A stretch of 64,000 nucleotides of DNA. Origin: a virus (taxonomy: Duplodnaviria; Caudoviricetes). Made by a program: the position numbers and the translations under genes. Where the stretch lies: the IMG/VR virus record IMGVR_UViG_3300021425_003554; one strand, 5' to 3'. Below are positions 6,601 through 39,243 of the stretch, piece after piece. Position 1 is the first letter of the stretch. The number at the start of each line of letters is the position of its first letter. Below the pieces are notes generated by a model, which saw only the letters and a list, made by a program, of their open reading frames with translations, had not been told where the DNA came from and did no database searches.

Positions 6601-6619
6601 ATAATTATCAAAAATTACC

Positions 6620-7945: not shown

Positions 7946-7963
7946 AACTGATATAAAACAATT

Positions 7964-13166: not shown

Positions 13167-13169
13167 AAT
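13141..13169 (+). promoter_or_regulatory. sigma70 promoter for primase-helicase
   Basis: TTGACA-N17-TAAAAT ending 7 nt before ATG. Confidence 0.7.
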
Positions 13170-13176
13170 ATAGAAT

Positions 13177-18305: not shown

Positions 18306-18419
18306 TGATTATCTTTTTACTTATTGCGTAAAATTTACAAAAAATTATTTTAGCGAAGCGTAAATTAGCGTAAGATTTATTTGACCTTTATGTTTTTACC
18401 ATTAAATATATCTATCAAG

Positions 18420-19706: not shown

Positions 19707-19725
19707 AAATATTATATAATGAATT

Positions 19726-20271: not shown

Positions 20272-20276
20272 TTTTT

Positions 20277-21101: not shown

Positions 21102-21152
21102 ACTCTTATTTAATTACAAAAATAAATGGCTATTAATTTTGTGACTAATTAA

Positions 21153-24718: not shown

Positions 24719-24994
24719 ATGCGTTATTTTTTTGTTATTATTATAACTGCTATTATATATATGTCGATCGGACACACCGATCATAAAAAATTTGAATTAG
24801 AATTTGAGGAGTTTCTGGCACGAGAGGAACTCATGACTTTTCAAATGAACTTGTGGGAGTTATTACAACAACTGGAATACACACACGGGGAACAACGTTC
24901 GGTTGTGAAGGATGAAATAACTGTGATGCGAGAAAATATTAATAAACAAATTATCAAGATATTAGAATTAGATTTTAAACATCATAAAGATTAA
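24719..24994 (+). CDS. Membrane-anchored hypothetical protein
   Basis: N-terminal hydrophobic helix MRYFFVIIITAIIYM; start refined. Confidence 0.55.
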   Translation: MRYFFVIIITAIIYMSIGHTDHKKFELEFEEFLAREELMTFQMNLWELLQQLEYTHGEQRSVVKDEITVMRENINKQIIKILELDFKHHKD

Positions 24995-25632
24995 ATTTTT
25001 TCTTCAAATATCTTTTTCCATGGTTCTACATTCCAATCAACAAAGATACTGACAATAATTCTTTCTTCTTTGCTGTCATTAATGACCGAATGTATATACT
25101 CTCCGGAATTTATAATTTTTGGTTTAAGATCAGAAAAGTCTACTAATCCGTTTTTGTAAATTTTAAAATAACAACCACGTGGCCAATTCAACGGAAAATA
25201 TATTTTGTGTGCAACAAAATTTGAATCTTTGTGTGGATATATGAATCCACCCGGACTCATTTTACTCATAGTTATAAGTAGAACACCGCCTAATAATTTT
25301 ATGTTTTTTAAAAAATTATTCCATTCAGGATATGATTCTGTATTGAAACACACCTCTTCTTTTTCGTCATGCTTCTGCTGTACAATAGGAATACCTATGA
25401 TATTACTTTCTGATTTAGATTTGTATAATAGAATGCGATCAATTTTTTCTAAACTCTTTGTTTTTCCAGGCCCGATCCAATCAAAACTAGATGCTTCTTC
25501 ATAAAGTTTAGATAGATCATAATCAAACGGGAAGTTTAAATTTTTGAAACTATTCGATGGTCCAAAATTGTTATCATAACGGAATAAATCCCGAATGATC
25601 TTTGGATATTTGTCTGAAAGATGAATTGTCAT
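24991..25632 (-). CDS. Aspartyl/asparaginyl beta-hydroxylase-like Fe/2OG oxygenase
   Basis: MSPGGFIYPHKD and HSVINDSKEERI. Confidence 0.7.
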   Translation of the reverse strand: MTIHLSDKYPKIIRDLFRYDNNFGPSNSFKNLNFPFDYDLSKLYEEASSFDWIGPGKTKSLEKIDRILLYKSKSESNIIGIPIVQQKHDEKEEVCFNTESYPEWNNFLKNIKLLGGVLLITMSKMSPGGFIYPHKDSNFVAHKIYFPLNWPRGCYFKIYKNGLVDFSDLKPKIINSGEYIHSVINDSKEERIIVSIFVDWNVEPWKKIFEEKI

Positions 25633-25960
25633 TGTTTATCCAATCTATATACCATTTCCATATGGGTGTATAAAAATAAAATTTTACGAAAATAGAATCT
25701 GCATTTCCTCTATTTTTATTACTAGTGAATCCATGATGAATAAAATAACGAGTGTCTATACCATCAAGTTCCAAACGATTTACTACAACGTTACCTTTTA
25801 TAGTTATTGAATTAAATTTATGTTTGATTGCATGAACGTCAAATTTATTAACCTTAACATCTGATGTTATGTCTTCGAATAGTTTTTTTTCATTAAACAA
25901 TATACTGTATTTAGAATTTTGTTGTGCATCTATTTCTAGAACAACTGGAATACTATCCAT
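25574..25960 (-). CDS. Hypothetical protein
   Basis: 128-aa ORF between clpP and the oxygenase. Confidence 0.55.
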   Translation of the reverse strand: MDSIPVVLEIDAQQNSKYSILFNEKKLFEDITSDVKVNKFDVHAIKHKFNSITIKGNVVVNRLELDGIDTRYFIHHGFTSNKNRGNADSIFVKFYFYTPIWKWYIDWINNDNSSFRQISKDHSGFIPL

Positions 25961-25972
25961 AAATCAAAATTT

Positions 25973-26578
25973 TTAAATTGTTTCTGGACTTGGTCTCTTT
26001 GTTACTATTTCGTCGGCAAGTCCGTATTCTACTGATTGTTCGGGAGTCATAAAATTATCTCTTTCCATGTCCGCGGCCAACATTTCATAAGTTTTATTTT
26101 TGGTGTTGTGCTTAACATAGATTTCAGTAAGATACTTTTTCATTCTAGATATTTCATTGATGTGTATCTGTAGATCTGTGACTTGTCCTCTTGCTCCGCC
26201 TAATGGTTGATGTATCATGTGTCTTGCGTGTGGCAGAATAAAACGTTTACCGGCCGTGCCTGCTTGGGCTAACAATGATCCCATGGAACAGGCCTGTCCT
26301 AAAACCACAGTTCTTATATCACATCTGATGTATTGCATGGTATCATAAATTGCCATACCGGCTGTAACTGATCCTCCGGGAGAATTGATATACAGTGTAA
26401 TATCTTTGTCTGCTGATTGTGACTCTAGAAATAAAAGTTGTGCTGTTAGCACCGATGCTAGTCTTTCATCAACTACATCGTCCAGCATTATAATTCTATC
26501 TTTTAAAAGACGAGAAAAAATATCATAACTTCTTTCGCCTTTTGATGTTTGTTCAATAACAATTGGTGTAAGTGGCAT
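25973..26578 (-). CDS. clpP: ATP-dependent Clp protease proteolytic subunit
   Basis: [26 protein letters not shown] catalytic Ser, MIHQP, ERDNFM; TTGACA-N17-TACAAT promoter upstream. Confidence 0.97.
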
Positions 26579-26640
26579 AATACTCTAATTGTAACATTTT
26601 TTTTCTCACCTGTCAACACACAACTTAAATATAACTACTA

Positions 26641-27492
26641 ATGAAAACAATTATAACCTGTGCTGTAACTGGTGGTAAAACTGATCCAAACTCCACACCA
26701 TACTTGCCAATAACACCGGAACAAATTGCACAATCCTCGTTGGATGCCGCGGCGGCGGGTGCTTCCATAGTACACATACACGTTCGAAATCCAGATAACG
26801 GTAAACCGTCTATGGACAAAGATCTTTACCAAAAAACTGTTGACTTGATAAGAAACAAGAACGAAAATCTTATTATTAATCTCACAACAGGCCCGGGTGC
26901 TGTGTATAAGCCATTAACAAATGATAATTCTGGATTAATGGATGCTCAAACAAGAGTGGAACACATAGATAGTATACGTCCTGATATATGTAGTCTAGAC
27001 TTTAACACCATGATGCAAGATGACGACGGTGTTAGGATAAACTCTATTCCTGTCGTTGCTGAGATGCTTTTGAAAATACAGTCATATGGCACACTTCCGG
27101 AATTTGAAATTTTTGACAGCGGTGATCTCAGAATTGCAAAAAAACTCATTAGTGACGGACTTACGAGCAGACAACCCATATGGCAAATAGTGACGGGAGT
27201 CAAATACGGATGGGAGTCTTCCATCAACACAATTGATTATGCGTTAAAAATTTTACCGGAAGACTCAATTTGGTGTGCTCTGGGAGTAGGCAAGATGTCT
27301 TTGCCTATAGCAGAATATGTTCATCAAAAAGGTGGCCATGTTAGGGTTGGCATGGAAGATAACATCTACCTCGAAAAAAATGTGCTCGCGAAATCAAATG
27401 CAGAGCTAGTAGAACAATGCGTATCTTCGATAGAAAAAACAAATGGCTCTGTGGCTTCCGTCTCTGAAGCAAGAACAATATTAAAAATTTAG
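26641..27492 (+). CDS. Beta-keto acid cleavage enzyme (BKACE/DUF849)
   Basis: IITCAVTG, AGASIVHIHVR, PEFEIFD, GGHVRVGMED. Confidence 0.92.
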   Translation: MKTIITCAVTGGKTDPNSTPYLPITPEQIAQSSLDAAAAGASIVHIHVRNPDNGKPSMDKDLYQKTVDLIRNKNENLIINLTTGPGAVYKPLTNDNSGLMDAQTRVEHIDSIRPDICSLDFNTMMQDDDGVRINSIPVVAEMLLKIQSYGTLPEFEIFDSGDLRIAKKLISDGLTSRQPIWQIVTGVKYGWESSINTIDYALKILPEDSIWCALGVGKMSLPIAEYVHQKGGHVRVGMEDNIYLEKNVLAKSNAELVEQCVSSIEKTNGSVASVSEARTILKI

Positions 27493-27494
27493 TC

Positions 27495-27526
27495 AAAAAA
27501 AAAGGGCCGCCGAAGCGACCCTTTTT
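27495..27526. terminator. Bidirectional intrinsic terminator
   Basis: A-run, GGGCCGC-CGAA-GCGACCC, T-run between convergent genes. Confidence 0.85.
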
Positions 27527-27546
27527 AAAAGTTGATTTAAAACTAA

Positions 27547-28035
27547 CTAGGCTTTCTTGATTCTATCAAGTAATCCAGGTGAAAATGTTGGTTCGAACTT
27601 TTCGTACACCGTTTTAGTCTTTTCCTTGAACTCTGCTGTTTCTTCCGGGGTAAGCTCGTGAACGTTAACACCCTCTGATTTCAATCTAGCCTTGGCTTCT
27701 TCTCCATCAGCGATCGTTGTTTCACGTTCTTTTCTTCCGGCATCAATTGCGGCCGCTTTTAAAACAGCCTTGACTTCTGGAGATAATTTCTCATAGAAAT
27801 CATTACGCATGATCATGGTTGTTAAGAACAAACTGTGTTTCGTATCAATAACCGATTTGGTCACTTCGTTCTGGTCCAAAGGGTAAACTCTAGAGTAAAC
27901 TCCTTCTCCGCCTTCACATTTTCCTTCTTCGATTGCACCTTTTAGATCTTCTATTTCACAAACGTGTCTATCTGTGACACCTAGTGCTTTGAAGGTTTCT
28001 TGGGCAACCGGGTTTCTGTTAGTTCTAAGTTTCAT
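27547..28035 (-). CDS. TRAP DctP solute-binding protein, C-terminal half
   Basis: KLRT conserved Arg strand, HSLFLT..M, FYEKLSPEVKAVLKAAA. Confidence 0.8.
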   Translation of the reverse strand: MKLRTNRNPVAQETFKALGVTDRHVCEIEDLKGAIEEGKCEGGEGVYSRVYPLDQNEVTKSVIDTKHSLFLTTMIMRNDFYEKLSPEVKAVLKAAAIDAGRKERETTIADGEEAKARLKSEGVNVHELTPEETAEFKEKTKTVYEKFEPTFSPGLLDRIKKA

Positions 28036-28038
28036 TTA

Positions 28039-28509
28039 TTACGCAGTTAAGTCACCTAGTTTGCTAACTTTTTTGTTAGAAACTACGTTTCTGAAACCAC
28101 CTGAGTAAGTAAATGCCATACCTCTAACGTTAGATTTTTCAGTGATTTTATTTAATAATTCTTCACCTACTTCACCTTCTAACACTCTAGTTGCATGATC
28201 ATGATCTGCAAATATGAAAGGCATTTCTAATGCTAACATATCTTGTTCATAATGCTCTGCTAACCATGTAGTGTACATTTGAGACATTTCAATTTTACCT
28301 TGTTCCATCAAGTCTAATAAGTCGTGTTTAGTAACTAATACACCGTTGTTGTATTTGTCACTGTACTCTCTTAATGTCATGATTTCAACTTCGATTTTTT
28401 CTGCAGTCTGAGCTCTGTTCACGAAATCTTGGAAATCTTTAGCCGCTCTTACGAATAAAGATAAAGGCTCGTGTGCAATAACCCATCTGATTTTAGTTGT
28501 TTTTGTCAT
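28039..28509 (-). CDS. TRAP DctP solute-binding protein, N-terminal half (no signal peptide)
   Basis: LEMPFIFADHDHA..LEGEVG, YSGGFR, DL; ends TAA TAA in frame with next ATG. Confidence 0.8.
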   Translation of the reverse strand: MTKTTKIRWVIAHEPLSLFVRAAKDFQDFVNRAQTAEKIEVEIMTLREYSDKYNNGVLVTKHDLLDLMEQGKIEMSQMYTTWLAEHYEQDMLALEMPFIFADHDHATRVLEGEVGEELLNKITEKSNVRGMAFTYSGGFRNVVSNKKVSKLGDLTA

Positions 28510-28637
28510 TGTGTTTCTTCCTTTTTATTTAACGTTAAATCAAGGCTGTGTTTACATTCTTGACTTACTGATATTTACCAATTAAATCAATGATAATATG
28601 TGTTTTCTGGCTAGTTTTAAATAATATACGCATATAA

Positions 28638-29903
28638 CTATCCTTTGTACTCGCTCAGCATTTTATCATAAAAATTATCAACATCATGATTTGGTTGCCA
28701 ATATTGATCAAATAAGAGGTCCGGTTGTGTTATTTTTAATGCCGGTTGTTGTCCAGCAATCTTATTTTTATACTTGTAATACTCGGTCATCTTAGAATAG
28801 TCGAAAATATATTTTTTAACCAAAGATTTGTGTTTGGTCATGTCTGCTGTTGGAATAAGTGACTTTAAATTAGTATAGGACCACTGCTGGAACTTGTCTG
28901 TGTTGAAAAAAGTATTTTTAGAGAAAAATTTTTGTTTTTCAAAAGATATATGTTCTCCGCTGTTATTGTATAAAAACGGTCGTTGGCAACTGAACTCCCA
29001 TTTGAAATTGAAATATGTCCACCAATACCAATCTGCTATACTAGTGAGATAATCATTGTGTTTGTTTTCAATAATATTATTCGAGAGTTTTTCACAAAAC
29101 CAATCAACGCAGTTTTTTGAAAACTCCGAGATATGCTTGTCAGAAAGATAGTTTTCTGGCAAACTTATTTTATAAAAATTGGTTTTGTTTTCTAGAATTT
29201 GTATCAATGGTTTTTTTATTAGATCCATATTTTTTTGCCAGGATTCGTGGTGAACTCCTTGACGTATAGCCATTTTCATTCTGCTTATGCTGGGACCAAA
29301 CAAGCAGTCGGCTGGGTCTCCGTGTAATAGAATGTACTGATCTAGAAACTCGTTTGTGACTAAAAAGAAAACAGAACTTCGAATTGCTAGTTTTCTGTAA
29401 ATAAATTTCATAAAAAATTCTGGATGTTCAAAAATAGAATCGGTATTACAAATGACCTCTATCATGTCGTGTTCGTTGTTGGGTATGTTTTTCAACAACG
29501 AAACCAATACTGATGTGGAATCAATTCCACCACTCCACATCACTGCCAGTTTCTTGTTGGAGTTCTTGGCCTCGTTGTACAACTCCATGGCTCGTGAATC
29601 ATAAATGTCCTCTAATTTATCATCGATGAATTTCAATTCGGGCATGGCATACAGTGGATTGCTGGGTGCGTTCCATGGATTATTAAAAGTACCCGATCGG
29701 GCTCGCCAGTCTGAAATACCTTGCATTAATTTATAAATCTGACCCCAGTACATACCATAAGGATTTTCTGGATACACAGACCTACTCAAAGGAAGATCAT
29801 ATCCCATGCTTAAAAAATTTGATACTGTATTAGATTTTGCAAATTTGTCTTTGACAGATTTGGGTAATGGAGAATTTTGGAACTTAACGATCTGTAATTT
29901 CAT
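28638..29903 (-). CDS. Asparagine-synthetase-like PP-loop amide ligase, paralog A
   Basis: MWSGGIDST PP-loop, HGDPADCLFGP (cf. SGEGADELFG), QRPF; no Ntn glutaminase domain. Confidence 0.7.
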   Translation of the reverse strand: MKLQIVKFQNSPLPKSVKDKFAKSNTVSNFLSMGYDLPLSRSVYPENPYGMYWGQIYKLMQGISDWRARSGTFNNPWNAPSNPLYAMPELKFIDDKLEDIYDSRAMELYNEAKNSNKKLAVMWSGGIDSTSVLVSLLKNIPNNEHDMIEVICNTDSIFEHPEFFMKFIYRKLAIRSSVFFLVTNEFLDQYILLHGDPADCLFGPSISRMKMAIRQGVHHESWQKNMDLIKKPLIQILENKTNFYKISLPENYLSDKHISEFSKNCVDWFCEKLSNNIIENKHNDYLTSIADWYWWTYFNFKWEFSCQRPFLYNNSGEHISFEKQKFFSKNTFFNTDKFQQWSYTNLKSLIPTADMTKHKSLVKKYIFDYSKMTEYYKYKNKIAGQQPALKITQPDLLFDQYWQPNHDVDNFYDKMLSEYKG

Positions 29904-30732
29904 TTAATTTCTTGCTCAAAAAAAATCTTATATGTTCTATCATGCTGTGCTCTTGGATTAAGTCTTTATATAGATTTGGATTTTTTTGAAAAGAACTCAA
30001 ATTGTCAAATCCGTCTTCTAATAAAAAATATCGATAACGCGGACTCGTTGTGTTTTTTGTTTTTGATGTTTTATCTATCATGTCGTTAATAAAGTCTAGA
30101 ACACAGTCGTTGTTTGATATGTCTATTTTATTAAAAGAGTCGATTAATGATTTTGTAACATATTTTTGGTATTCGTGTAAATCTGCACTATGTCTATCGT
30201 TTAAATTTAGCTCTTGTTCAAATATTTTTTTTAATTCCTCACTATGATCTGGTGTGTCCACTAATAGTTTTAAAAAATTAAAAAATTCTTTTATTCCATT
30301 ATCTTTATCTCTAGTTGAATCTATTTTAAAATTTTTTATTGAATCTAACTGTATTTGAACAATTTCAAAAATTTCTAATATTATTTCTAATACGTCTTTC
30401 AATTTATAGGAAATATCTATGTCAGTTGGTGAAATCATGATACCGGATTCTTTGGCATTATGCAGTGACACTGTTTGCTCTAGACTTTGAATCATGGTAG
30501 TGTTGGCACCATATTTTACACAATTGGTATTGTCTATGTTATCTAATATTATATCTCTATACTCAGTATTATATTTTTTTTGGTAATCTATTGTTTGGGT
30601 TATGTTTAATACCGGATAGAAATATTTTTGCATTATGACAAATTGTACTTGTTTAATAGCAGAAAAATTTGTTGACACCACAACAAATTTATTAGCGGCC
30701 GGGTCTATTAATCCATATAACTCGTTTGACAT
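29884..30732 (-). CDS. Hypothetical protein
   Basis: 282-aa AT-rich ORF between paralogs A and B. Confidence 0.7.
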   Translation of the reverse strand: MSNELYGLIDPAANKFVVVSTNFSAIKQVQFVIMQKYFYPVLNITQTIDYQKKYNTEYRDIILDNIDNTNCVKYGANTTMIQSLEQTVSLHNAKESGIMISPTDIDISYKLKDVLEIILEIFEIVQIQLDSIKNFKIDSTRDKDNGIKEFFNFLKLLVDTPDHSEELKKIFEQELNLNDRHSADLHEYQKYVTKSLIDSFNKIDISNNDCVLDFINDMIDKTSKTKNTTSPRYRYFLLEDGFDNLSSFQKNPNLYKDLIQEHSMIEHIRFFLSKKLNEITDR

Positions 30733-30743
30733 AATGTTAATTA

Positions 30744-32006
30744 TTACCCTTTATAACGATCCAGAAGCAATCTGGAAGTTTTAGCGACCCTATGATCGTC
30801 TTCATTCCAGGCGTGTCCTACCCACTCGTCGTCATAATAAAAAGGATTTATCGTGCCGTCACTATTCACATTCACAGTTCTCAAAACATTTACCGGAGTT
30901 TTGGTTCCTACTTTTGTTTTTGTACTGAAGTAAATTTCATTGTGATCAAACTCGTACACATATTTTTTTAAATCTATTTTGTGTTGTGATACATCTTTAG
31001 GTATCAAATTTTTTAAATTGGTGTAGGACCATTGCTGGAACTTGTCTGTGTTGAAGAATGTGTTCTTGGCAAATTGCTCTTGATGTCCGTGTGGTATCGA
31101 TTTCTTGTGCATGGGTATTCTTTTGCTATCTTGCTGTAAAGATCTCATATAAAAGAATGGACGTTGGCAACTGAATTCCCACTTGAAGTTGAAGTATTGC
31201 CACCACCAGAAATCTGCAACAGTTGATACATAATCAGATTGTCCGGCCTGTTGTATTGTTTGATTTATCTTGTCATAGTACCATTGATTGAAATCAAAAC
31301 CTAATTGATATGTTGACAGCAAAGGGTGTTTGATGTTTATTTTATGTATGCTGTGTGGTTTTAAATGGATGCCCGATGACTCATAATTTTTAACAGTTTG
31401 ATTATTGCTCGACGGCATATTGGGACCAAACAAGCAGTCGGCTGGGTCTCCGTGTAATAGAATGTACTGATCTAGGAAATCAACATCTAGTTTTATGTCT
31501 ATGTAATTTTTTTGTTTTAACTTGTTACTGATGTGTTTAAAATAAAAATTAACATTCTCATATATCGAGGAAGTTGTCATGATGACCTCTATCATGTCGT
31601 GTTCGTTGTTGGGTATGTTTTTCAACAACGAAACCAATACCGCAGTGGAATCAATTCCACCACTCCACATCACTGCCAGTTTCTTGTTGGAGTTCTTGGC
31701 CTCGTTGTACAACTCCGTGGCTCTCTCGTCCAGCAAGTCACTCATTTTGTCGTTGATGAATTTCAATTCGGGCATGGCATACAGTGGATTGCTGGGTGCG
31801 TTCCATGGCGTGCTGAACGTGCCTCTGCGAGGACGAGTGTCATGAATTCCTAGCAATATCCTCGGAATAAGAATCCAAGCAACGGCAAAATTGTTTTTTT
31901 TCATTTCATTTAGGTATTGTTGGACCTCCCAGTTATCGACCATTCGAGATGATTTAATTTTTTTCACATGATCAACTGGATATTTTTTGCTGTGATAGTT
32001 TTCCAT
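30744..32006 (-). CDS. Asparagine-synthetase-like PP-loop amide ligase, paralog B
   Basis: Same motifs; shares exact DNA blocks with A and C. Confidence 0.7.
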   Translation of the reverse strand: MENYHSKKYPVDHVKKIKSSRMVDNWEVQQYLNEMKKNNFAVAWILIPRILLGIHDTRPRRGTFSTPWNAPSNPLYAMPELKFINDKMSDLLDERATELYNEAKNSNKKLAVMWSGGIDSTAVLVSLLKNIPNNEHDMIEVIMTTSSIYENVNFYFKHISNKLKQKNYIDIKLDVDFLDQYILLHGDPADCLFGPNMPSSNNQTVKNYESSGIHLKPHSIHKINIKHPLLSTYQLGFDFNQWYYDKINQTIQQAGQSDYVSTVADFWWWQYFNFKWEFSCQRPFFYMRSLQQDSKRIPMHKKSIPHGHQEQFAKNTFFNTDKFQQWSYTNLKNLIPKDVSQHKIDLKKYVYEFDHNEIYFSTKTKVGTKTPVNVLRTVNVNSDGTINPFYYDDEWVGHAWNEDDHRVAKTSRLLLDRYKG

Positions 32007-32021
32007 ATCTTTAATGTGTTG

Positions 32022-33245
32022 CTAACCCTCGTACCTTTCTATGAGATATCTCATACTTTTATCAACCGTGCTGTTGTCTTCGTTTCCACTATAACCTATC
32101 CAGTTGTTGTCATAATAAACTGGTCTATCGATATCTATGTGTTGTATGGGATTTTTGACTCCCACTTTTGGTTTTTCAACAAAATAAATTTCATTGTGAT
32201 CAAACTCATACACATATCTTTTTACATCTATTTTGTGTTGTGACCGGTCATCGTCAGGAATTAATCTTTTTAAATTGGTGTAGGACCACTGCTGGAACTT
32301 GTCTGTGTTGAAGAATGTGTTCTTGGCAAACTGTTGTTGATGCTCATATGATATTGGTTTCTTGTACAAGGGCATTCCGTCTTTGTCGCCGGTAGATCTC
32401 ATATAAAAGAATGGACGTTGGCAACTGAATTCCCACTTGAAGTTGAAATAGGTCCACCACCAGAAATCTGCAACAGTTGATACATAATCTTGCTGATCAA
32501 TCTCGCCTATGCTTTGACTTATTTTGTCATAGTACCATTGATTGAAATCTACTGCTAGATCGTCTGTCAAATAGTTTTTAATTTTTATTTTGTGTATGCT
32601 ATGCGGTTGTTTGTGCAGACCTTTGAGAAAATAATCTTTATACATGGGCATACTGGGACCAAACAAGCAGTCACCCGGATCACCGTGTAGTAAAATGTAT
32701 TTGTCAAGAAAGTATGTGTTCAAACTTATATCAAGATAAAAAGATTGTTTGATCTTTCCATTGATGTGTTTTTTCCAATATTCAACATTCTCATATATCG
32801 AGGAAGTTGTCATGATGACCTCTATCATGTCGTGTTCGTTGTTGGGTATGTTTTTCAACAACGATGTCAGCACTGCTGTGGAATCAATTCCACCACTCCA
32901 CATCACTGCCAGTTTCTTGTTGGAGTTCTTGGCCTCGTTGTACAACTCCGTGGCCCTCTCGTCCATTAGATCTGACAGCGTGTCGTTGATGAATTTCAAT
33001 TCGGGCATGGCATACAGTGGATTGCTGGGTGCGTTCCATGGCGTGTTGAACGTGCCTCTGCGAGCTCGCAGATCTTGTACTCCGATCAATATTTTTGGAG
33101 TTCGTCTCCAAACTTCGGCAAACTTGTTTGCATAGGTTCCGTTATTTTTCAAATCGGTTTTTGCACTGGGATAGGGTATCCAGTGGTTGTCGACCATCCG
33201 TGATGAACGTATTCCTTGTATGTGTGCCTGTGGATGATGTTTCAT
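32022..33245 (-). CDS. Asparagine-synthetase-like PP-loop amide ligase, paralog C
   Basis: Same motifs; TTAAATA 7 nt upstream of ATG. Confidence 0.7.
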   Translation of the reverse strand: MKHHPQAHIQGIRSSRMVDNHWIPYPSAKTDLKNNGTYANKFAEVWRRTPKILIGVQDLRARRGTFNTPWNAPSNPLYAMPELKFINDTLSDLMDERATELYNEAKNSNKKLAVMWSGGIDSTAVLTSLLKNIPNNEHDMIEVIMTTSSIYENVEYWKKHINGKIKQSFYLDISLNTYFLDKYILLHGDPGDCLFGPSMPMYKDYFLKGLHKQPHSIHKIKIKNYLTDDLAVDFNQWYYDKISQSIGEIDQQDYVSTVADFWWWTYFNFKWEFSCQRPFFYMRSTGDKDGMPLYKKPISYEHQQQFAKNTFFNTDKFQQWSYTNLKRLIPDDDRSQHKIDVKRYVYEFDHNEIYFVEKPKVGVKNPIQHIDIDRPVYYDNNWIGYSGNEDNSTVDKSMRYLIERYEG

Positions 33246-33275
33246 TTTTGTTTATTTAAATAAACAAAAAAACTT

Positions 33276-34019
33276 TTAAAAAATAGTGAGTATATCTGGT
33301 AAATGAAATATTACCAAAATGTAATCTTTGTTTTTTCCGGATTTGAAAAAAGTGTTTGCCAAAAATTTGTCGGGTGTCACTTCCAGCATGGTACCAGGTA
33401 CATGATCATATACTTTTTCCACGGTTAAATTGTCTAATCGATTATACGGATAACCGTTGTTCTGAATCACTGTGTGCCGTAGGTCATATCTAAAACTGTT
33501 GCTGTTTTCTGTTGGCGATATTGGTTGAGAACATCGTTCTAACATTTCCGTGTGATTGGAAGCCGTGTCCGAAAACACCAGTGTCTTGTCCGATGACGGG
33601 TCGGTGTTTATTGGCATTAAAAACATTTTAGTGACCTGCGTCGTATCATGACTAGAATGATGGTATAGGCCGTGAGGTGCATGGCATTCTTGTAGGAACA
33701 TAAAACGAGGCTGGGCAACTTTTAGTTCACTTTTGAAATGCTGTATCTTGTTGATCACTGCCTGTCTTATGCCGTTGCTTGGATCCACGTTGACAAATCT
33801 GGAAAGTGGTTGTAATCGTTCTACTGGTTTGAAAGGAAAGACCGATTCGGGCCTAGAACCGTTGCCGGGATCTACAAAGTTTTTGAAGTCATACGGTTTG
33901 CGTGCCGATGCTTTCAACTGTTTGATCTCGTGTCGTAGCCATTTCAACTGATTGCTGTTCCACACGTCCTTGTGTACATTTGCTACATTCCTGAAAGTGT
34001 CGTTTATATTGTTGCTCAT
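33276..34019 (-). CDS. Degenerate Fe/2OG-oxygenase-like protein
   Basis: Aligns by eye with 35811 ORF but lacks HxD and distal His. Confidence 0.5.
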   Translation of the reverse strand: MSNNINDTFRNVANVHKDVWNSNQLKWLRHEIKQLKASARKPYDFKNFVDPGNGSRPESVFPFKPVERLQPLSRFVNVDPSNGIRQAVINKIQHFKSELKVAQPRFMFLQECHAPHGLYHHSSHDTTQVTKMFLMPINTDPSSDKTLVFSDTASNHTEMLERCSQPISPTENSNSFRYDLRHTVIQNNGYPYNRLDNLTVEKVYDHVPGTMLEVTPDKFLANTFFKSGKNKDYILVIFHLPDILTIF

Positions 34020-34075
34020 ATATCTGTATTTAACTAATTTTCGCCGACTATTCTATGATCATTAAATAAAACATC

Positions 34076-34849
34076 ATGCAAAACATCAAAGAAGCCAGAC
34101 AACTGATACGTGCCGGGGAATACACTGGATATACCAGTGGATGGTGTAGAGACTATGTTCAGGGTAACTTGTGCATAGTGGACAAGTCGGATGCCGAGGA
34201 TTTCGCAGAGTTCTGCAGATTGAATCCAAAACCGTGTCCGGTGTTGGCACAGGGAGATCCCGGAGATCCAGTGTTGAAGTCATTGGGGGATATCAACATA
34301 TGTACCGATCTTCCCAGATATCGCGTGTGGCGTAAAGGTAAATTAGTGGACATAGTTTCTGACATTTCGTCATACTGGACCAACGACATGGTGGCCTTTG
34401 TTCTCGGATGCAGTTTCAGTTTTGATCAACTGTTCTTGGATGCAGGACTGCCGTTGCCTCATCTCAATGATGGTTCGATGGTGGCCATGTACCGCACCTG
34501 GAACGAATGCGAGTCCGTGGGCAAATTTCGAGGACGACTGGTGGTGAGCATGAGACAGTTCCGTGCGGACCATGCCATAGAATCCATAGCGATATCGTCA
34601 AGGTATCCACTGGCACATGGAACTCCTGTACACATCGGAGATCCCACACAGATAGGAATACGAGACCTAACCAAACCCGATTACGGAGATGTGCCCAAAG
34701 TTGTGCAGGGACATCTGCCTGTGTTCTGGGCCTGTGGTGTGACGCCACAGAGCATATTGACCACATCGCCGGATGTGGAGATAGCGATCACACACCAGCC
34801 TGGTTGTATGCTGTTGACCGATATACCTTATTCAAAAATAGCAGTGTGA
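34076..34849 (+). CDS. D-glutamate cyclase family (DUF1445/UPF0317)
   Basis: FCRLNPKPCPVL, TDLPRYRV, GCSFSF, HGTPVHIG, FWACGVTPQ, THQPGCML. Confidence 0.92.
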   Translation: MQNIKEARQLIRAGEYTGYTSGWCRDYVQGNLCIVDKSDAEDFAEFCRLNPKPCPVLAQGDPGDPVLKSLGDINICTDLPRYRVWRKGKLVDIVSDISSYWTNDMVAFVLGCSFSFDQLFLDAGLPLPHLNDGSMVAMYRTWNECESVGKFRGRLVVSMRQFRADHAIESIAISSRYPLAHGTPVHIGDPTQIGIRDLTKPDYGDVPKVVQGHLPVFWACGVTPQSILTTSPDVEIAITHQPGCMLLTDIPYSKIAV

Positions 34850-34857
34850 TAGATCTA

Positions 34858-35493
34858 TCACTGATCGATCATCAGATCATGTATTTGTTGGAAGTCATGA
34901 TCTTTTCTCATTTTGTTTTCTAATCGCAAACTCATGATTATCCTCTCATGTGTGGTAGAGGTGTTCCCCCAGTAATGCCACTCGCCGGTGTTTATCAACA
35001 TTGCCTGGTCGTTCTGTAGCACAGTGGTACAGGCCCGAGGTGTCTGTAGTTGACCTTGCATGTCCCACCATTCATCGTCCACGTTGTGTACATCGCTATA
35101 GATTGTCCGTGGATCATTCTTCAACACTTCATCATCCACCCAGTAGGTGTTGCAACATTGGTCCAGCACCTTTATGGGGAAATTCAATCCCACCAGGTCG
35201 TCGGCACCTGGGCCTTCGGTCCTGTCTCTGTGCAGTGAGGAATAATCTCCGGGCTGTGATATCAGAACACTTCCGATTCTTTGCCACGATATGCTGTCCG
35301 GGCCGGGCAGGCAATGATATATCTCTGACAGATCTATGCTTTTGCGAGTGTGCTTCCGGGCTGTCGGGAATGTGTGTGGTTGACAAACCCTGTCGTCATT
35401 GACGTGTGCCTGTAGCCAAGATATTATTTTGGGCAATCCGGGCCAGGTGATCGTGGTGTAATAGGGAGAGTGATCTGAGATGACTTTCATCAT
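34858..35493 (-). CDS. Fe/2OG-oxygenase-like protein
   Basis: SLHRD, LINTGEWH, ERIIMSLR; start refined to ATG behind GATAAATA. Confidence 0.65.
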   Translation of the reverse strand: MMKVISDHSPYYTTITWPGLPKIISWLQAHVNDDRVCQPHTFPTARKHTRKSIDLSEIYHCLPGPDSISWQRIGSVLISQPGDYSSLHRDRTEGPGADDLVGLNFPIKVLDQCCNTYWVDDEVLKNDPRTIYSDVHNVDDEWWDMQGQLQTPRACTTVLQNDQAMLINTGEWHYWGNTSTTHERIIMSLRLENKMRKDHDFQQIHDLMIDQ

Positions 35494-35562
35494 GTGCTGA
35501 TATTTATCGGCATGGATCAAACAGCATATTATGGTGACACACGCGATATTAAGTATTTTTGT

Positions 35563-35817
35563 ATGTACACCATAGAGCAGAGGAAGACCATATACCTCAT
35601 GACACGCAAACCGGTGTGGTATCACACTCACTGCCTCACACCGGGACCGGGCAAACCCCTGTGGTACGATCCCACGTGGGTCATAGGCGAGTGCGAACTG
35701 TGCCGCATGGACATAGCCGGCCAGGACTGGTGGAACGGTTGCAGTTATCGACAATCACAGAGAAAGGTGTACGACGGCCTGATCAATCAACGCCACTGGT
35801 TTGGTGTTGATCAGTAG
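35563..35817 (+). CDS. Small Cys/Trp-rich hypothetical protein
   Basis: MYTIEQRK..CELC..; fills the gap between minus-strand genes. Confidence 0.45.
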   Translation: MYTIEQRKTIYLMTRKPVWYHTHCLTPGPGKPLWYDPTWVIGECELCRMDIAGQDWWNGCSYRQSQRKVYDGLINQRHWFGVDQ

Positions 35818-36500
35818 GACTCGTTGCGGAACTGTCGGGCGAAGGGTCCTTGTTTGATGGTGGTGTGTATCAGCAGATAGTCCTTGTGTTGGCGTTCCGG
35901 TGAGTGCCTCTGCCAATCAGATCCAGCGTGTATGGCGTGTGCATCAAAACACACAGCATCTCCCAACCTGTACTCGAACACACCGGCCACTGTCATGTGA
36001 TCCACCACTGATTCACAGTGTTCCAGTTGATAGCGTAGTCGGTGATCACCCCTGTGGGGCCATGTGCTCGCACTGTGTATTATGCGTTGTTGGGCCTGGT
36101 GTGCATCGATCTGTTCCTGTCGTAGGTCAGTGATGGTGCTGTGATCAAACACCACTGTGCGATCCACGCCGGGGGTGACGTGTCGCAACGGCAACAGTAT
36201 GCTGTGTCCACGACCCTGATTGGGATGGTTGTCGGTGTGCAGGCTATTTGACCGGTGCTGTTCCACGAAGGCCATGAATGTGAGCTTCTCGTCGGGCAGG
36301 TCCTCCATGACACGCATCGCGAACTGCTGTGTGATGGGATAGAGGTGCTGTTGGGCATTGATCCTGTATCTCCGGGCCATTGCAGTGCGTCCCATGTCGG
36401 GCAGGGGTTCACGCTCCAGGCACTGATCCATTTCCGCACAGATCTGCTCCAGCTCTGCTGTGCTGACCACATCGTGCAGTACTCGGAAATCCACTGTCAT
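35811..36500 (-). CDS. Fe/2OG-oxygenase-like protein
   Basis: SLHTD HxD, distal HAGS; TATAAATA 5 nt upstream of ATG at 36500. Confidence 0.65.
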   Translation of the reverse strand: MTVDFRVLHDVVSTAELEQICAEMDQCLEREPLPDMGRTAMARRYRINAQQHLYPITQQFAMRVMEDLPDEKLTFMAFVEQHRSNSLHTDNHPNQGRGHSILLPLRHVTPGVDRTVVFDHSTITDLRQEQIDAHQAQQRIIHSASTWPHRGDHRLRYQLEHCESVVDHMTVAGVFEYRLGDAVCFDAHAIHAGSDWQRHSPERQHKDYLLIHTTIKQGPFARQFRNESY

Positions 36501-36524
36501 GCTGATATTTATAGGGTGATTGTT

Positions 36525-36570
36525 TGACCCGGCTCCGCTGTGGACGAAACCGGGCGGATCCCACAGTCCC
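36525..36570 (-). ncRNA. Pseudoknotted trailer RNA 3' of the atypical tRNA
   Basis: CTGTGG/CCACAG, TCCG/CGGA, CCCGG/CCGGG pairings in A-C-B-A'-C'-B' order. Confidence 0.5.
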
Positions 36571-36572
36571 TT

Positions 36573-36669
36573 TGGTACGGTCAACAGGACTCGAACCTGT
36601 AGTGCCCTCTCGAGCTCCAGCGTCAAAACACCGGATGTGTCTGGATACTCCTGATTTCACCATGACCGC
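36573..36669 (-). tRNA. Atypical class II (Leu-like) tRNA-like RNA with non-canonical D and anticodon arms
   Basis: 7-bp acceptor GCGGTCA/TGACCGT, A73, CCA, T-arm ACAGG-TTCGAGT-CCTGT, variable arm GCTC-GAGA-GGGC; TGTTATAAT just upstream. Confidence 0.75.
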
Positions 36670-36765
36670 ACACGCATTATAACATGGCCCCGATGGTAAT
36701 GCTAGACCTTTTTTTTCTGCTGTGCAAATTTTTTTGATCTGAGGAACACCGGGTGTAGGCAGTTT

Positions 36766-36936
36766 TTACAACAGCAATCGCCTGTCCACTTCGCTCGCGG
36801 GCACATCACACACCTGTACCAGATCATATCGCTGTTCCAGTGAGTCATGCAGTATGTCAGCGGATTCCCGATCCAACTGCACATAGCAACGATGTAGTAT
36901 ACGGCCCTTTTGACACATAACGTAGTAGTACTTCAT
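36766..36936 (-). CDS. Small hypothetical protein
   Basis: 56-aa ORF MKYYYVMCQKG.. Confidence 0.4.
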   Translation of the reverse strand: MKYYYVMCQKGRILHRCYVQLDRESADILHDSLEQRYDLVQVCDVPASEVDRRLLL

Positions 36937-37170
36937 GTAGGTTATTATACGTTCAAACGACACAGTTGTCAAACCTGGGTATGCAGGGTAAAAAAATCCG
37001 CTGTGCATTTTTTTTAATATGGGGGTATTTTAGCACCACCCCGGTCCTTTTTAGGCCATGGGGCTTACAAATTGCCAAATTTATTACCAAAATAAAAATG
37101 CTATGCGACCGGGGCCAGATCTTTTTCTTTCTGGGTCCAGCCGGCCGACCCTGATTATTAAATATAACAT

Positions 37171-37842
37171 ATGGACAGGATGCAGAGATTGGTGGCCTTT
37201 GGATGTAGCAACACCCTGGGCGAGGGACTGGAGGGCTTCCAGTGGCGACAGCCTCACCCACGGGCATGGCCGGCCGTGTTGGGTCAGCAACTGGACCGAC
37301 CGGTGTTGAACCTGGGCCACTCGGGCGCCAGCAACAGGTACATAATGGATCGTGTGTTGAACACACCGCTCACACGCACCGACACAGTGGTGATCATGTG
37401 GACCAGTTTCGCCAGGCACTGTTGGTTCGATGCGGGGGGACAGGTGCGGCGTGCATTGCCACACGACATAGGAAGGCCACACGAATGGCCACACGACGGA
37501 CCCGAGATCGATGGTCGGCTCAGCGAGCTCTATTACCAACACATATGGTCGGCGCACGATGCCTGGCACGCCAGCATGACACAGATCAACTGGACACAGG
37601 CCTACCTACAGCGGCTGGGCGTGAGATGCCTGCACCTGCTGTGGTGGGAGGGCGATCATCACCGGGACAGGCCCTCATGGAACCAGACCCTGATACACAA
37701 CCTGCCGTTCAGCCAGGAGGACCGTGCACCGGACGGCCACCATCCGGGCGTGAACTCACACCACACACAGGCCCTACGCATCCGGGAACTGCTGTTCCGC
37801 ACACACCCCAACCACCCGGCCACCCTGCGATCCCACAGTTGA
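37171..37842 (+). CDS. SGNH-hydrolase-like phage protein (paralog of 22160 ORF)
   Basis: GCSNTLG, NLGHSGASN, DGHHPG; TTAAATA 6 nt before ATG. Confidence 0.7.
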   Translation: MDRMQRLVAFGCSNTLGEGLEGFQWRQPHPRAWPAVLGQQLDRPVLNLGHSGASNRYIMDRVLNTPLTRTDTVVIMWTSFARHCWFDAGGQVRRALPHDIGRPHEWPHDGPEIDGRLSELYYQHIWSAHDAWHASMTQINWTQAYLQRLGVRCLHLLWWEGDHHRDRPSWNQTLIHNLPFSQEDRAPDGHHPGVNSHHTQALRIRELLFRTHPNHPATLRSHS

Positions 37843-38107
37843 TCTCTCCTTAGATGTGCCTCAATTACCAATAGATCGGGTTGATCTCTCCGTGTGCCCA
37901 CTCGGCACAACGAAGCTCACTGTGCGAACACTTGGTCAAAATGGTCCAAAATGGTACGCCAGGCCCGCCGCCAGCCCTGTGGTTATTGCATAGATTTTAC
38001 CAGATCAACTCGGTAATTGGATTGGCTATGTGGTTATCGCATGGCACTCGGACCGGTCGGGATCGCCCTTTACCACCACCAATCCGGCTGGGGATAAGTA
38101 CTCATAT

Positions 38108-38311
38108 ATGTTCAAGATGATAGTGGTGATATGTGCCCTGGGCAATCCCTGTGTGCAATTCGTGGAGAACCAACACCGGGTGTATGCCACACAAAACCAG
38201 TGCCTGGATCGTGCGGAGATCAAGTACCAACAGCTCACAGCAACACTGATCCAAGCGGGTTATCGACTGGCCGATTCCGGCTACTACTGTGTGAGGGACG
38301 ACAGCATATGA
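38108..38311 (+). CDS. Small Cys-containing, possibly secreted protein
   Basis: MFKMIVVICALGNPC..; GATAAGTA 7 nt before ATG. Confidence 0.55.
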   Translation: MFKMIVVICALGNPCVQFVENQHRVYATQNQCLDRAEIKYQQLTATLIQAGYRLADSGYYCVRDDSI

Positions 38312-38636
38312 TCTGGGATCTAGTGATAATAACGCTGTCAATGGTGGCCTATGCCTACATGGCCTGGTCACTGCATAAGTGAACCAACACACCCCCCACC
38401 GACCCCAAGGCATATTGTTCGCAGATCAGTACCGCTCCCTACCTTTGCACACGGTGGCCAATCGGTGGCCCTCACCCCGGCCAGATCAACCCCAACACGC
38501 CTTTAGGCGTTTGCGACCCAGATTTGCGTATCGAAGGTCACAATTCTTTTGGTAAGATCCTAAGGATGGGGCACTATGCTAAAATACGGCAACCGCTTTT
38601 AGCCACCATACGACACGATCCCGCATACATACTCGT

Positions 38637-38765
38637 ATGCCGTTTAGATACTATTGGGAATGGTTCCTGTTCTGGGTCACTGGCTATCCCTGTTGGGACT
38701 GTGTGAGGATACGCCTGATCATCCTGGTCCTGCTCGTCATCGTTGCCCATTTTTTGCTAGCCTAA
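38637..38765 (+). CDS. Small membrane protein with CxxC (not in ORF track)
   Basis: MPFRYYWEWFLFWVTGYPCWDCVRIRLIILVLLVIVAHFLLA. Confidence 0.5.
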   Translation: MPFRYYWEWFLFWVTGYPCWDCVRIRLIILVLLVIVAHFLLA

Positions 38766-39243
38766 ACAGCCTCCACCATAAACGACCCACGGTGCTCTAC
38801 CATTCCAATTGTGCTTCACACACTGAACTCGCAGGCGATCTAGCCAAGAGGAGTCAGGGTAGATCACAGTTGGGATTATCAGCAGGCACTCTAGGTTAGG
38901 ATAGGGCTCGGTGTCAAAAATTGCTGTCGCGATATGCCTGTAAGGCATATAATGGAAACAAGCATTTGGTAAAATTTTTGCGGCGCACCGCTTCGCGGAC
39001 AGGGCCTATGGCTTCCGGTTGGTAATACCATGTCTGTGTGCTCTGGGGGTGGCTAGGTTAGGGATTGGATGGACTATGGATTCACATACTGGCCACACTC
39101 AAAACCGTGATGGTCGTGAGGTAAGTGATCAGTAGGGTGTATATGGCTATCTTGAGCTTCAGCATCTGTTCCTTGTTGTTGGGATTGTTGAACCTAGACT
39201 ATATATCTGTGGTTGGTTTTTTTTGGGTGGATATGCGAGCCTA

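What the first reader, a model, noticed from the sequence alone, without database searches (positions are those of the whole stretch)
28638..33245. Three tandem AsnB-like ligases built as DNA-level mosaics of exact shared blocks and variable segments
All three share exact 72-bp and 54-bp blocks, including synonymous sites, around the PP-loop. Other blocks are pairwise: A=B at 29291-29345/31421-31475, and B=C at 31551-31585/32784-32818. Intervening and terminal segments are highly divergent and AT-richer, while shared blocks are GC-richer. This indicates ongoing segmental gene conversion or cassette shuffling that keeps the ATP-binding core and diversifies putative substrate-binding regions. 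The lack of a glutaminase domain resembles lasso cyclase or beta-lactam synthetase-type enzymes.
Basis: partly seen in the sequence, partly recalled or inferred. Interest (0 to 1): 0.75.

Follow-up and report, generated by a model that had tools for sequence, protein, structure and literature searches.

The report
Gene-converted enzyme paralogs in jumbo phage
A marine jumbo phage carries three copies of an unnamed ATP-using enzyme (asparagine-synthetase-like fold) whose catalytic cores keep being copied onto one another while the rest stays distinct: a clean case of the well-known process of gene conversion, inside a five-gene block that related phages swap whole.

Summary
Genes A (28638-29903), B (30744-32006) and C (32022-33245), all on the minus strand, share exact 54-, 72- and 50-nt blocks around the PP-loop. 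They also share pairwise blocks of up to 81 nt. Overall they are only 59% (A-B, A-C) and 75% (B-C) identical in DNA. They are not strictly tandem: an unrelated 282-aa gene lies between A and B.

The cause is ongoing segmental gene conversion. In the core, paralogs within a genome are closer (8-13%) than orthologs between genomes (13-19%). One related phage has a 228-nt identical core, and another has none (39% apart). Four near-identical strains differ by tracts that match a paralog, and they share polymorphisms across paralogs. About 40 tandem paralog pairs in other phages share at most 26 exact bases.

Five independent assemblies and contigs from four sequencing runs exclude an assembly artefact.

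Converted codons are GC3-rich (0.63, against 0.24-0.42 elsewhere). This is suggestive of GC-biased conversion but does not prove it.

The proteins match no Pfam family. Their fold is closest to asparagine-synthetase-type synthetase domains (Z 7.7-11.4), and there is no glutaminase domain. The substrate is unknown.

The block P0005-C-B-P0004-A (about 28570-34025) is replaced whole on a 96-100% identical backbone.

The scan has judged gene conversion of tandem paralogs well known on other DNA (e1-3788140).

The parts
28638..29903 (-). Gene A, 421 aa. A-type PP-loop, AsnB-synthetase-fold enzyme.
   Evidence: ORF and translation with the AVMWSGGIDST motif. Orthologs occur in L006, L007, L012 and L096. 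dN/dS against its ortholog is 0.04-0.09.
29884..30732 (-). P0004, 282 aa. Partner gene whose end overlaps the start of A by 20 nt. No known family.
   Evidence: ORF. hhalign gives probability 94% and E 1e-7 to the ORF that precedes the PP-loop gene in distant jumbo phages. This family lies upstream of, or between, PP-loop genes in 43 viral loci. AF2 model pLDDT 80, with no convincing fold match.
30744..32006 (-). Gene B, 420 aa. BC-type paralog, a duplicate of C that is absent from two-copy relatives.
   Evidence: AF2 model pLDDT 90.
32022..33245 (-). Gene C, 407 aa. BC-type paralog.
33276..34019 (-). P0005, 247 aa. First gene of the block. No family; possibly a 2OG-Fe(II)-oxygenase-like protein (a lead only).
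   Evidence: Syntenic in L007 and L012.
29625..29678 (-). 54-nt block identical in A, B (31755-31808) and C (32988-33041). Encodes PWNAPSNPLYAMPELKFI.
29515..29586 (-). 72-nt block identical in A, B (31645-31716) and C (32878-32949). Encodes the PP-loop.
29452..29501 (-). 50-nt block identical in A, B (31582-31631) and C (32815-32864).
29291..29345 (-). 55-nt block identical in A and B (31421-31475). Encodes the HGDPADCLFGP motif.
31551..31631 (-). 81-nt block identical in B and C (32784-32864).
31074..31109 (-). Conversion tract in B that varies between strains. There are 13 differences between the window and strain G001, and in 12 of them the G001 allele equals gene C.
32313..32325 (-). Tract in C (with B 31056-31068) that changes in both genes together between strains. 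Four of five sites change to the A-type letters.
28570..34025 (-). The exchangeable five-gene block P0005-C-B-P0004-A. It is 54-74% identical to phage L096, whose flanks are 95-100% identical.
27547..28509 (-). Two in-frame halves of a DctP-family solute-binding protein, downstream on the same strand, with no strong terminator-like site before the one after them.
   Evidence: Pfam PF03480. The same split is seen in L006, L007 and L012.
27499..27526 (-). Terminator-like hairpin (12 pairs followed by a T run) after the DctP halves. Likely end of the transcription unit.

Best explanation
A, B and C are old paralogs of an unnamed phage family of stand-alone PP-loop enzymes. The fold is that of the synthetase domain of asparagine synthetase B. 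They most likely adenylate a carboxylate with ATP and pass it to an amine, and each paralog probably has its own substrate or partner.

The A-type and BC-type genes diverged before the related phages split, and B and C are a later duplicate. In this lineage the phage's homologous recombination repeatedly copies short tracts (about 20-90 nt here, 228 nt in one relative) from one paralog onto another.

Tracts start where the catalytic motifs already give enough identity. The process therefore feeds itself in the core and stops at the diverged, paralog-specific segments, which selection keeps apart.

The process is going on now in the population.

What is shown: the blocks, the concerted evolution, the differences between strains, the fold and the cassette exchange.

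What is inferred: the chemistry, the division of labour between paralogs and the role of selection at tract borders.
For: Concerted evolution:
- Core (A residues 76-151) DNA distance between paralogs is 8-13% in the window's genome, 8-18% in L006, 0% in L012 and 39% in L007.
- Orthologs between the window and L006 are 13-19% apart.
- Core dS is 0.25-0.46 for paralogs and 1.1-1.2 for the A and B orthologs (0.46 for C).
- Genome-specific residues are shared by all three copies: NNEHDM in the window and SNEHDI in L006.
- The core tree groups L006's three paralogs together (95% support), not with their orthologs. The tree of the rest separates the A type from the BC type (100%).

Ongoing process:
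- The window and G001 are 98.85% identical over 33 kb, but the genes carry clustered differences that match a paralog.
- Nineteen alignment columns are polymorphic in two or more paralogs among four strains. My estimate of the chance expectation is about 5.5.

Not a constraint on the DNA itself: other phages' paralog pairs share at most 26 exact bases.

Not an artefact:
- L094 is collinear with window 24746-36935 at 97.8%.
- Logan contigs of four runs from four studies match the unique segments: exactly in three runs, with strain variants in the fourth. They break at the shared blocks.

Enzyme:
- The SGGIDS motif is present.
- The AF2 model has pLDDT 90.
- The best folds are TsnB9 Z 11.4, beta-lactam synthetase 10.4, human ASNS 10.2, carbapenam synthetase 8.7 and AsnB 7.7.
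- dN/dS is 0.04-0.21 for all three genes.
Against: - No biochemical data exist. The substrate and the reaction are inferred from fold alone.
- No Pfam or PDB sequence match goes beyond the PP-loop itself.
- The direction of the conversion events is unclear.
- Synonymous sites between the lineages are near saturation, so dating is rough.
- All relatives are metagenomic assemblies. Linkage across the blocks rests on short-read assemblies and on collinearity with unconverted orthologs, not on long reads.
Confidence: 0.85

Rival explanations
1. Assembly artefact: the identical blocks, or the mosaic order, were made by a short-read assembler collapsing or switching between similar paralogs.
For: The IMG/VR contig G001 ends at window 33076 inside gene C, and L093 also starts inside C. 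Logan contigs break at the blocks. So the repeats do disturb assembly.
Against: The same three-gene order and blocks occur in the window, G001, L093, L094 and (diverged) L006, all from different samples. L094 spans the whole locus. The A-type and BC-type genes are collinear over their full length with orthologs in L007 and L096, which have no repeat longer than 13-18 nt to mislead an assembler. The differences between the blocks are kept, not smoothed away.
Confidence: 0.03
2. Selection on the DNA or RNA sequence itself (an embedded signal, an RNA structure or strict codon choice) keeps the blocks identical, without any copying.
For: The blocks coincide with the most conserved protein motifs of the family.
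Against: The same amino acids are encoded with many synonymous differences in L007 (28 of 46 core codons), in orthologs (core dS 1.1-1.2) and in about 40 other paralog pairs. Block borders also differ between strains.
Confidence: 0.03
3. Young duplicates: the three genes arose recently, the blocks are what remains of their identity, and the variable segments diverged very fast under positive selection.
For: B and C are the more similar pair (75%), and B is absent from the two-copy relatives.
Against: A-type and BC-type orthologs both exist in L006, L007, L012 and L096. The A/BC split is therefore older than these phages, yet core paralog distance (10-13%) is below ortholog distance (31% to L007). 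The variable parts have dN/dS 0.08-0.21 between orthologs.
Confidence: 0.03
4. A programmed diversity system: the conserved blocks serve as recombination sites for shuffling the variable segments among the copies to create new specificities.
For: Some tracts that vary between strains lie in moderately variable parts of B and C (31074-31109). T-even gp38 adhesins use conserved motifs around hypervariable segments in this way between phages (PMC3157838). The whole block is exchanged between phages.
Against: The variable segments of A, B and C stay with their own ortholog across strains and lineages. No silent donor cassettes were found in the window (tblastn). No reverse transcriptase or site-specific recombinase was seen in the Pfam scans of the neighbours, which were not exhaustive.
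Confidence: 0.05

Closest known systems
Concerted evolution of tandem paralogs by segmental (domain-restricted) gene conversion, as in bacterial rRNA operons (PMC8022953) and many duplicated genes
   Same: Paralogs within a genome are closer than orthologs in bounded tracts. Silent sites are identical. Tree signals disagree between tracts and the rest. Polymorphisms are shared between paralogs.
   Different: This case is in a virulent-type jumbo phage genome. The tracts are very short (20-90 nt) and limited to catalytic motifs. It is seen live among strains about 1% apart, and relatives range from no conversion to a fully identical core.
Asparagine synthetase B family synthetase domains (AsnB, human ASNS, beta-lactam synthetase, carbapenam synthetase, TsnB9, lasso cyclase McjC)
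   Same: The PP-loop motif SGGxDS is present. The best fold matches cover the PP-loop domain and the C-terminal helical part (Z 7.7-11.4; McjC E 1.7e-3). There is a GDPxDxLFG motif where, from memory, AsnB has its second nucleotide motif.
   Different: There is no N-terminal glutaminase-type domain at all, only about 85 other residues. No PF00733 match reaches threshold. A conserved upstream partner gene of unknown fold is present. The family is a phage one, with 1130 clusters at 50% identity and no name.
Conserved-motif recombination in T-even phage gp38 adhesins (PMC3157838)
   Same: Conserved blocks alternate with variable segments in a phage gene, and recombination takes place at the conserved blocks.
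   Different: There the exchange is between alleles of different phages and changes host range. Here it is between paralogs of one genome and homogenises the conserved parts.
QatB-QatC pair of the QatABCD defence system (PMC13376578)
   Same: A PP-loop ATPase is encoded next to a protein of no known family that may be its substrate.
   Different: QatC is QueC-like, not AsnB-like. No sequence or fold link was found, and binding of P0004 to A is not shown.

Membership tests
PP-loop ATP pyrophosphatase superfamily | SGGxDS/T motif after the first strand of a Rossmann-like fold | tested here: met
   AVMWSGGIDST is present in all three proteins. S, G, G, D and S are invariant in 48 relatives. Weak PP-loop-only hits to LarE, TilS and QueC-like models.
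Asparagine synthase family (Pfam PF00733) | Profile match at or above Pfam's gathering score | tested here: not met
   No hit for A, B or C at E 0.01. Only 2 of 48 relatives match, at best E 0.0024.
Asparagine synthase family (AsnB-type synthetase domain) | Fold of the synthetase domain, including the C-terminal helical subdomain | tested here: met
   VIA-align results: TsnB9 Z 11.4 (282 aligned), beta-lactam synthetase Z 10.4, ASNS Z 10.2, CarA Z 8.7, AsnB Z 7.7. Other PP-loop families reach at most 7.2. Stand-alone Asn_synthase clusters in the Atlas give TM 0.53-0.54. The margin is moderate.
Glutamine-dependent asparagine synthetase (AsnB proper) | N-terminal class II glutaminase domain with Cys at position 2 | tested here: not met
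   The proteins have only about 85-110 residues before the PP-loop and start MKLQ / MENY / MKHH. In most fold matches the alignment starts at model residue 68-87 and at target residue about 170-220.
Lasso peptide cyclase (McjC type) | Clustered with a leader peptidase (transglutaminase-like B protein or RRE) and a short precursor gene | tested here: inconclusive
   The fold match to McjC is weak (E 1.7e-3, TM 0.32). No such Pfam domains were found in the scanned neighbours. Short precursor genes were not searched for.
Beta-lactam / carbapenam synthetase | Intramolecular amide (lactam) formation, with a catalytic Lys and a Tyr-Glu pair | not testable with these tools
   There is fold similarity only. 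No residue-level superposition was available.
Segmental gene conversion between paralogs | Tract-limited identity at silent sites, paralogs closer than orthologs, and discordant trees | tested here: met
Segmental gene conversion between paralogs | Events segregating in the population (differences between strains that match a paralog; polymorphisms shared between paralogs) | tested here: met
GC-biased gene conversion | GC enrichment at silent sites confined to converted tracts | tested here: met
   GC3 of the core minus GC3 of the rest is +0.21 to +0.30 in all 16 copies from converting lineages. It is -0.015 +/- 0.06 (maximum 0.18) in 98 other family members. Codons identical in all three paralogs have GC3 0.63, against 0.24-0.42 elsewhere.
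GC-biased gene conversion | Excess of AT-to-GC over GC-to-AT changes that donor composition cannot explain | tested here: inconclusive
   GC-to-AT loss is 2/24 in converted against 17/24 in unconverted codons of A (p 1.7e-5). AT-to-GC gain is 23/46 against 8/31 (p 0.057), with no difference in C. Where all outgroups agree there are 8 AT-to-GC and 0 GC-to-AT changes. However, the two outgroups are one lineage, the sites are saturated, and the BC-type core was already GC3-rich (0.54-0.55) without conversion.

The most novel reading that the evidence does not exclude
The conversion is GC-biased. In an AT-rich phage (GC3 about 0.33) the repeatedly converted codons have been driven to GC3 0.6-0.7. 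If so, this would be a direct footprint of GC-biased gene conversion in a phage genome. I found no paper on that among the open-access papers searched. Together with the whole-block replacement on a near-identical backbone, it would mark this enzyme-plus-partner block as a fast-turnover locus of phage-host conflict.
Probability: 0.35. Interest if true: 0.65.

Novelty: new member of a known kind. Interest (0 to 1): 0.45.

Why it matters
Gene conversion between paralogs is textbook biology, so the mechanism itself is not new. This locus has three points of value.

1. It is an unusually well-resolved natural case in a phage. The same genes are seen unconverted, patchily converted and fully converted in related phages, and events segregate among strains about 1% apart. 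This gives tract lengths (20-90 nt) and a possible GC bias for a phage recombination system.

2. It brings to light a large unnamed family of stand-alone asparagine-synthetase-fold enzymes (1130 clusters at 50% identity). A conserved upstream partner gene accompanies them in jumbo phages, often in two to four tandem copies. In Mu-like prophages and in bacteria the family sits next to a cupin. It is a good target for biochemistry.

3. The five-gene block is a discrete, highly diverged cassette on a near-identical backbone. That pattern is usual for genes involved in phage-host conflict.

Tried and rejected
- Pfam, NCBIfam, PHROGs and PDB sequence searches gave only PP-loop-motif hits.
- blastn and tblastn against deposited phage genomes found nothing for the locus or for protein B.
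- Complex prediction of A with P0004 gave no verdict (score 0.05), so it says nothing either way about binding.
- P0004: VIA-align gave only generic helical matches (Z at most 7.9). The Atlas gave one viral hypothetical cluster (TM 0.47). A row for a viral class II glutaminase at TM 0.22 is too weak to use. Pfam at E 5 gave no consistent family.
- P0005 is not related to P0004, nor to the partner ORFs of distant phages, nor to the cupin that neighbours bacterial homologs.
- The cupin neighbour family is not clearly related to the window's own cupin at 19726-20271 (probability 31%).
- The window's own assembly is not held, so copies elsewhere in the genome could not be sought. tblastn of B against the window finds only A, B and C.
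- The first related-loci query (A2) was too diverse to run.
- Mapping the variable segments onto the model's pocket was not possible, because no coordinates are returned.
- I first treated L096 as a second independent outgroup. It carries the same module type as L007 (89% identical), so the polarised substitution counts are weaker than they look.
- The sigma-70 promoter scan was at chance level (27 sites against 24.8 expected).
Full report
**1. What is at the coordinates**

The interval holds four minus-strand ORFs, not three tandem ones:
- A, 28638-29903, 421 aa.
- An unrelated 282-aa ORF, P0004, 29884-30732, whose end overlaps the start of A by 20 nt.
- B, 30744-32006, 420 aa.
- C, 32022-33245, 407 aa.

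A 247-aa ORF, P0005 (33276-34019), precedes C. Two in-frame halves of a DctP-type solute-binding protein (28039-28509 and 27547-28035) follow A. A strong terminator-like hairpin lies at 27526-27499. The seven ORFs are therefore probably one transcription unit.

A, B and C all carry AVMWSGGIDST, a PP-loop motif. At protein level A is 50% identical to B and 51% to C.

**2.

A codon alignment gives exact three-way DNA blocks of 54, 72, 50 and 23 nt. Overall DNA identity is only 59% (A-B), 59% (A-C) and 75% (B-C).

The identity includes silent sites:
- Among codons with the same amino acid, A and B differ in 7 of 65 in the core and in 52 of 112 outside it.
- The longest runs of identical codons are 22-31 codons, with permutation p of 0.0005-0.0085.

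The blocks are richer in GC than the rest of the genes.

**3. Where the window comes from**

The window's own assembly is not held. The nearest record is an IMG/VR viral contig, G001, collinear with window 1-33076 at 98.85% identity.

The window encodes a primase, a DnaB-type helicase, a UvsW-like helicase and three radical-SAM/SPASM proteins. It also encodes TauD, cupin, ClpP, BKACE and D-Glu-cyclase proteins and a cluster of tRNA genes. The helicase is about 50% identical to that of the Pseudomonas jumbo phage PA5oct.

The locus is held by 20 runs from 15 studies of seawater, estuary and salt-marsh metagenomes. This is therefore an uncultured marine or estuarine jumbo phage.

**4. Gene conversion, not constraint, youth or artefact**

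Related contigs give a natural series:
- L006 has three copies.
- L007 and L012 have two copies each (one BC-type gene, a P0004-like gene and an A-type gene), in the same neighbourhood.
- L093, L094 and L095 (= G001) are strains 94-97% identical to gene B.

In the core (A residues 76-151) the DNA distances are as follows.

| Comparison | Core distance |
|---|---|
| Paralogs, window | 8-13% |
| Paralogs, L006 | 8-18% |
| Paralogs, L012 | 0% (228 nt identical) |
| Paralogs, L007 | 39% |
| Orthologs, window to L006 | 13-19% |
| Window A to its L007 ortholog | 31% |

Outside the core, A-type and BC-type copies are 44-53% apart, except in L012, where they are 33% apart.

Further evidence:
- Core dS between paralogs is 0.25-0.46, against 1.1-1.2 between the A and B orthologs.
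- Lineage-specific residues are shared by all three copies of a genome: PNNEHDM in the window and PSNEHDI in L006; FLDR and LKTLIP in all three L006 copies.
- The core tree groups L006's three paralogs together. The tree of the rest separates the A type from the BC type.

Because the A/BC split is older than these phages, paralogs that are closer than orthologs can only come from copying. The unconverted L007 pair encodes the same motifs with 28 of 46 codons differing synonymously. About 40 tandem paralog pairs of the family in other phages share no more than 10-26 exact bases. The DNA sequence itself is therefore not constrained.

**5. The process is going on now**

The window and G001 differ at 1.15% overall but at about 3% across the genes. 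The differences are clustered:
- In B, 13 differences fall within 31074-31109, and in 12 of them G001 carries the letter of gene C.
- Five sites change together in B (31056-31068) and C (32313-32325), four of them to the A-type letter.
- Two new G-to-A changes appear at homologous sites of both B and C.
- One site is swapped between A/B and C.

Among four strains, 19 alignment columns are polymorphic in two or more paralogs, mostly with the same two letters. From the per-gene counts I estimate about 5.5 would be expected by chance. The longest shared block also shifts between strains, from 72 to 92 nt and at different borders.

**6. Assembly artefact excluded as far as short reads allow**

- Five assemblies from different samples give the same order.
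- L094 spans window 24746-36935 at 97.8% identity, so the window is not chimeric where G001 stops at 33076.
- Logan contigs of four runs from four studies reproduce the unique segments: without a difference in three runs and with strain variants in the fourth. They end exactly at the shared blocks, as true repeats in a k=31 graph should.
- A-type and BC-type genes are collinear over their whole length with orthologs that have no long repeats.

Long reads are still desirable.

**7. GC enrichment of the converted codons**

- GC3 of the core minus GC3 of the rest is +0.21 to +0.30 in all 16 copies from converting lineages. It is -0.015 +/- 0.06 (maximum 0.18) in 98 other family members.
- Codons identical in all three window paralogs have GC3 0.63, against 0.24-0.42 for the others.
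- At columns with the same amino acid, window A has GC3 0.64 where its unconverted L007 ortholog has 0.34. In the synonymous differences, A has G/C against A/T 30 times and the reverse 4 times. In unconverted codons the counts are 11 against 23.
- Polarised counts show far fewer GC-to-AT losses in converted codons (2/24 against 17/24 in A, p 1.7e-5). AT-to-GC gains give only a weak signal.

Caveats:
- The BC-type core is already GC3-rich (0.54-0.55) in unconverted relatives, so part of A's enrichment may come from its donor.
- The two outgroups turned out to be a single lineage.
- Silent sites are saturated.

GC-biased conversion is therefore a plausible reading but is not shown.

**8. What the proteins are**

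The family is large: 218 hits in the word-indexed search, and 1130 clusters at 50% identity with E below 0.001 in the exhaustive search. It carries no Pfam domain.

An AF2 model of B is confident (pLDDT 90, pTM 0.91).
- Foldseek matches to PDB are weak, with E about 4e-3 to AsnB-type enzymes.
- VIA-align ranks TsnB9 (Z 11.4), beta-lactam synthetase (10.4), human ASNS (10.2), carbapenam synthetase (8.7) and AsnB (7.7) above all other PP-loop enzymes (at most 7.2). The matches span model residues about 70-416.
- AlphaFold Swiss-Prot matches are asparagine synthetases and McjC.
- The Atlas search finds viral (Uroviricota) hypothetical clusters first (TM 0.68-0.77) and then stand-alone Asn_synthase proteins (TM 0.53-0.54).

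There is no glutaminase domain. The three genes are under purifying selection (dN/dS 0.04-0.21).

The residues identical in the three paralogs are also the most conserved in the wider family (2.07 bits against 0.80). The tracts therefore sit on the catalytic motifs: the PW...P stretch, the PP-loop, GDPxDxLFG, DFWWW and FQxWS.

The most likely chemistry is ATP-dependent adenylation of a carboxylate followed by amide formation with free ammonia or an amine. This follows from established knowledge of the AsnB family and is an inference. The substrate is unknown. The co-transcribed signal-less DctP (a family of carboxylate binders) and the BKACE, D-Glu-cyclase and oxygenase neighbours suggest a small organic acid. 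That is a lead only.

**9. A conserved partner and recurrent tandem copies**

The P0004 family matches the ORF that directly precedes, and overlaps, the PP-loop gene in distant jumbo phages (hhalign probability 94%, E 1e-7; contexts).

In a clustering of neighbours over 153 loci:
- This partner family lies upstream of, or between, PP-loop genes in 43 viral loci.
- 27 loci have two to four tandem PP-loop genes.
- Distant homologs (25-29% identity) occur in bacteria and in Mu-like prophages, after the baseplate genes (Baseplate_J, Mu gp48, GpP), usually next to a cupin-type protein of about 232 aa.

P0004 folds with fair confidence (pLDDT 80) into a small alpha/beta part plus a helical bundle. 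It has no convincing match.

**10. The whole block is an exchangeable cassette**

Phage L096 is 96-100% identical to the window at 24.5-28.5 kb and mostly 95-99% identical at 34.0-36.9 kb. It is only 54-74% identical from about 28570 to 34025, which is exactly the stretch P0005-C-(B)-P0004-A. It lacks B. Its A and BC genes are of the L007 type (89% and 88% identical to L007) and are unconverted.

Two very different versions of the block therefore circulate on one backbone. This is the only 'cassette shuffling' seen, and it acts on the whole block, not on segments within the genes.

**11. Verdict**

The AsnB-like label holds for the fold but not for family membership by profile. The idea that the mosaic diversifies the substrate regions is not supported.

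The mechanism is a known one. What this locus adds:
- the resolution of the case in a phage;
- the possible GC bias;
- the unnamed enzyme-plus-partner family;
- the cassette-like turnover of the block.

Noticed in passing
window 27547-28509 (-); L006 4794-5756, L007 5103-6065, L012 7952-8914: The DctP-family solute-binding protein is split into in-frame ORFs of 156 and 162 aa with only 3 nt between them. The same split is called in three diverged relatives, so it is conserved rather than a chance pseudogene.
   Followed up: partly
window about 34000-40000: GC rises to 0.49-0.55 next to a genome of about 0.33 GC, and there is a GC gradient across the block (A 0.35, B 0.38, C 0.40, P0005 about 0.41). 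Against L096 this region also holds insertions, deletions and lower identity (35000-35500 absent; 37000-38000 at 75-77%).
   Followed up: partly
window 16749-22157: Three radical-SAM proteins lie here, two of them with the SPASM domain placed before the radical-SAM domain. A TauD dioxygenase, a cupin and an FTR1-like permease lie among and beside them. The set resembles a tailoring-enzyme island.
   Followed up: no
window 13001-14000: There are 77 differences from G001 within 1 kb, against 1-17 per kb in most of the other bins. This is a second local hot spot of divergence or recombination, near the primase gene.
   Followed up: no
L017, L020, L159, L163 (about 500-8100): In Mu-like prophages of Comamonas and Xanthomonas, and in related viral contigs, a distant homolog of the PP-loop enzyme sits after the Baseplate_J and gp48 genes, in the tail-fibre region. 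A gene of about 150 aa and a cupin of 236 aa follow it.
   Followed up: partly
L008 7022-7249 and L010 5854-7137: In distant jumbo phages the partner-plus-enzyme pair lies just upstream of DNA polymerase B. Nearby are an acyl-carrier-type protein (PP-binding) in one phage and an isocitrate-lyase/PEP-mutase protein in the other.
   Followed up: no
window 36573-36669 (-): ARAGORN calls a 97-nt tRNA-Gly that Rfam does not report. Earlier notes describe a tRNA-like RNA at this place.
   Followed up: no
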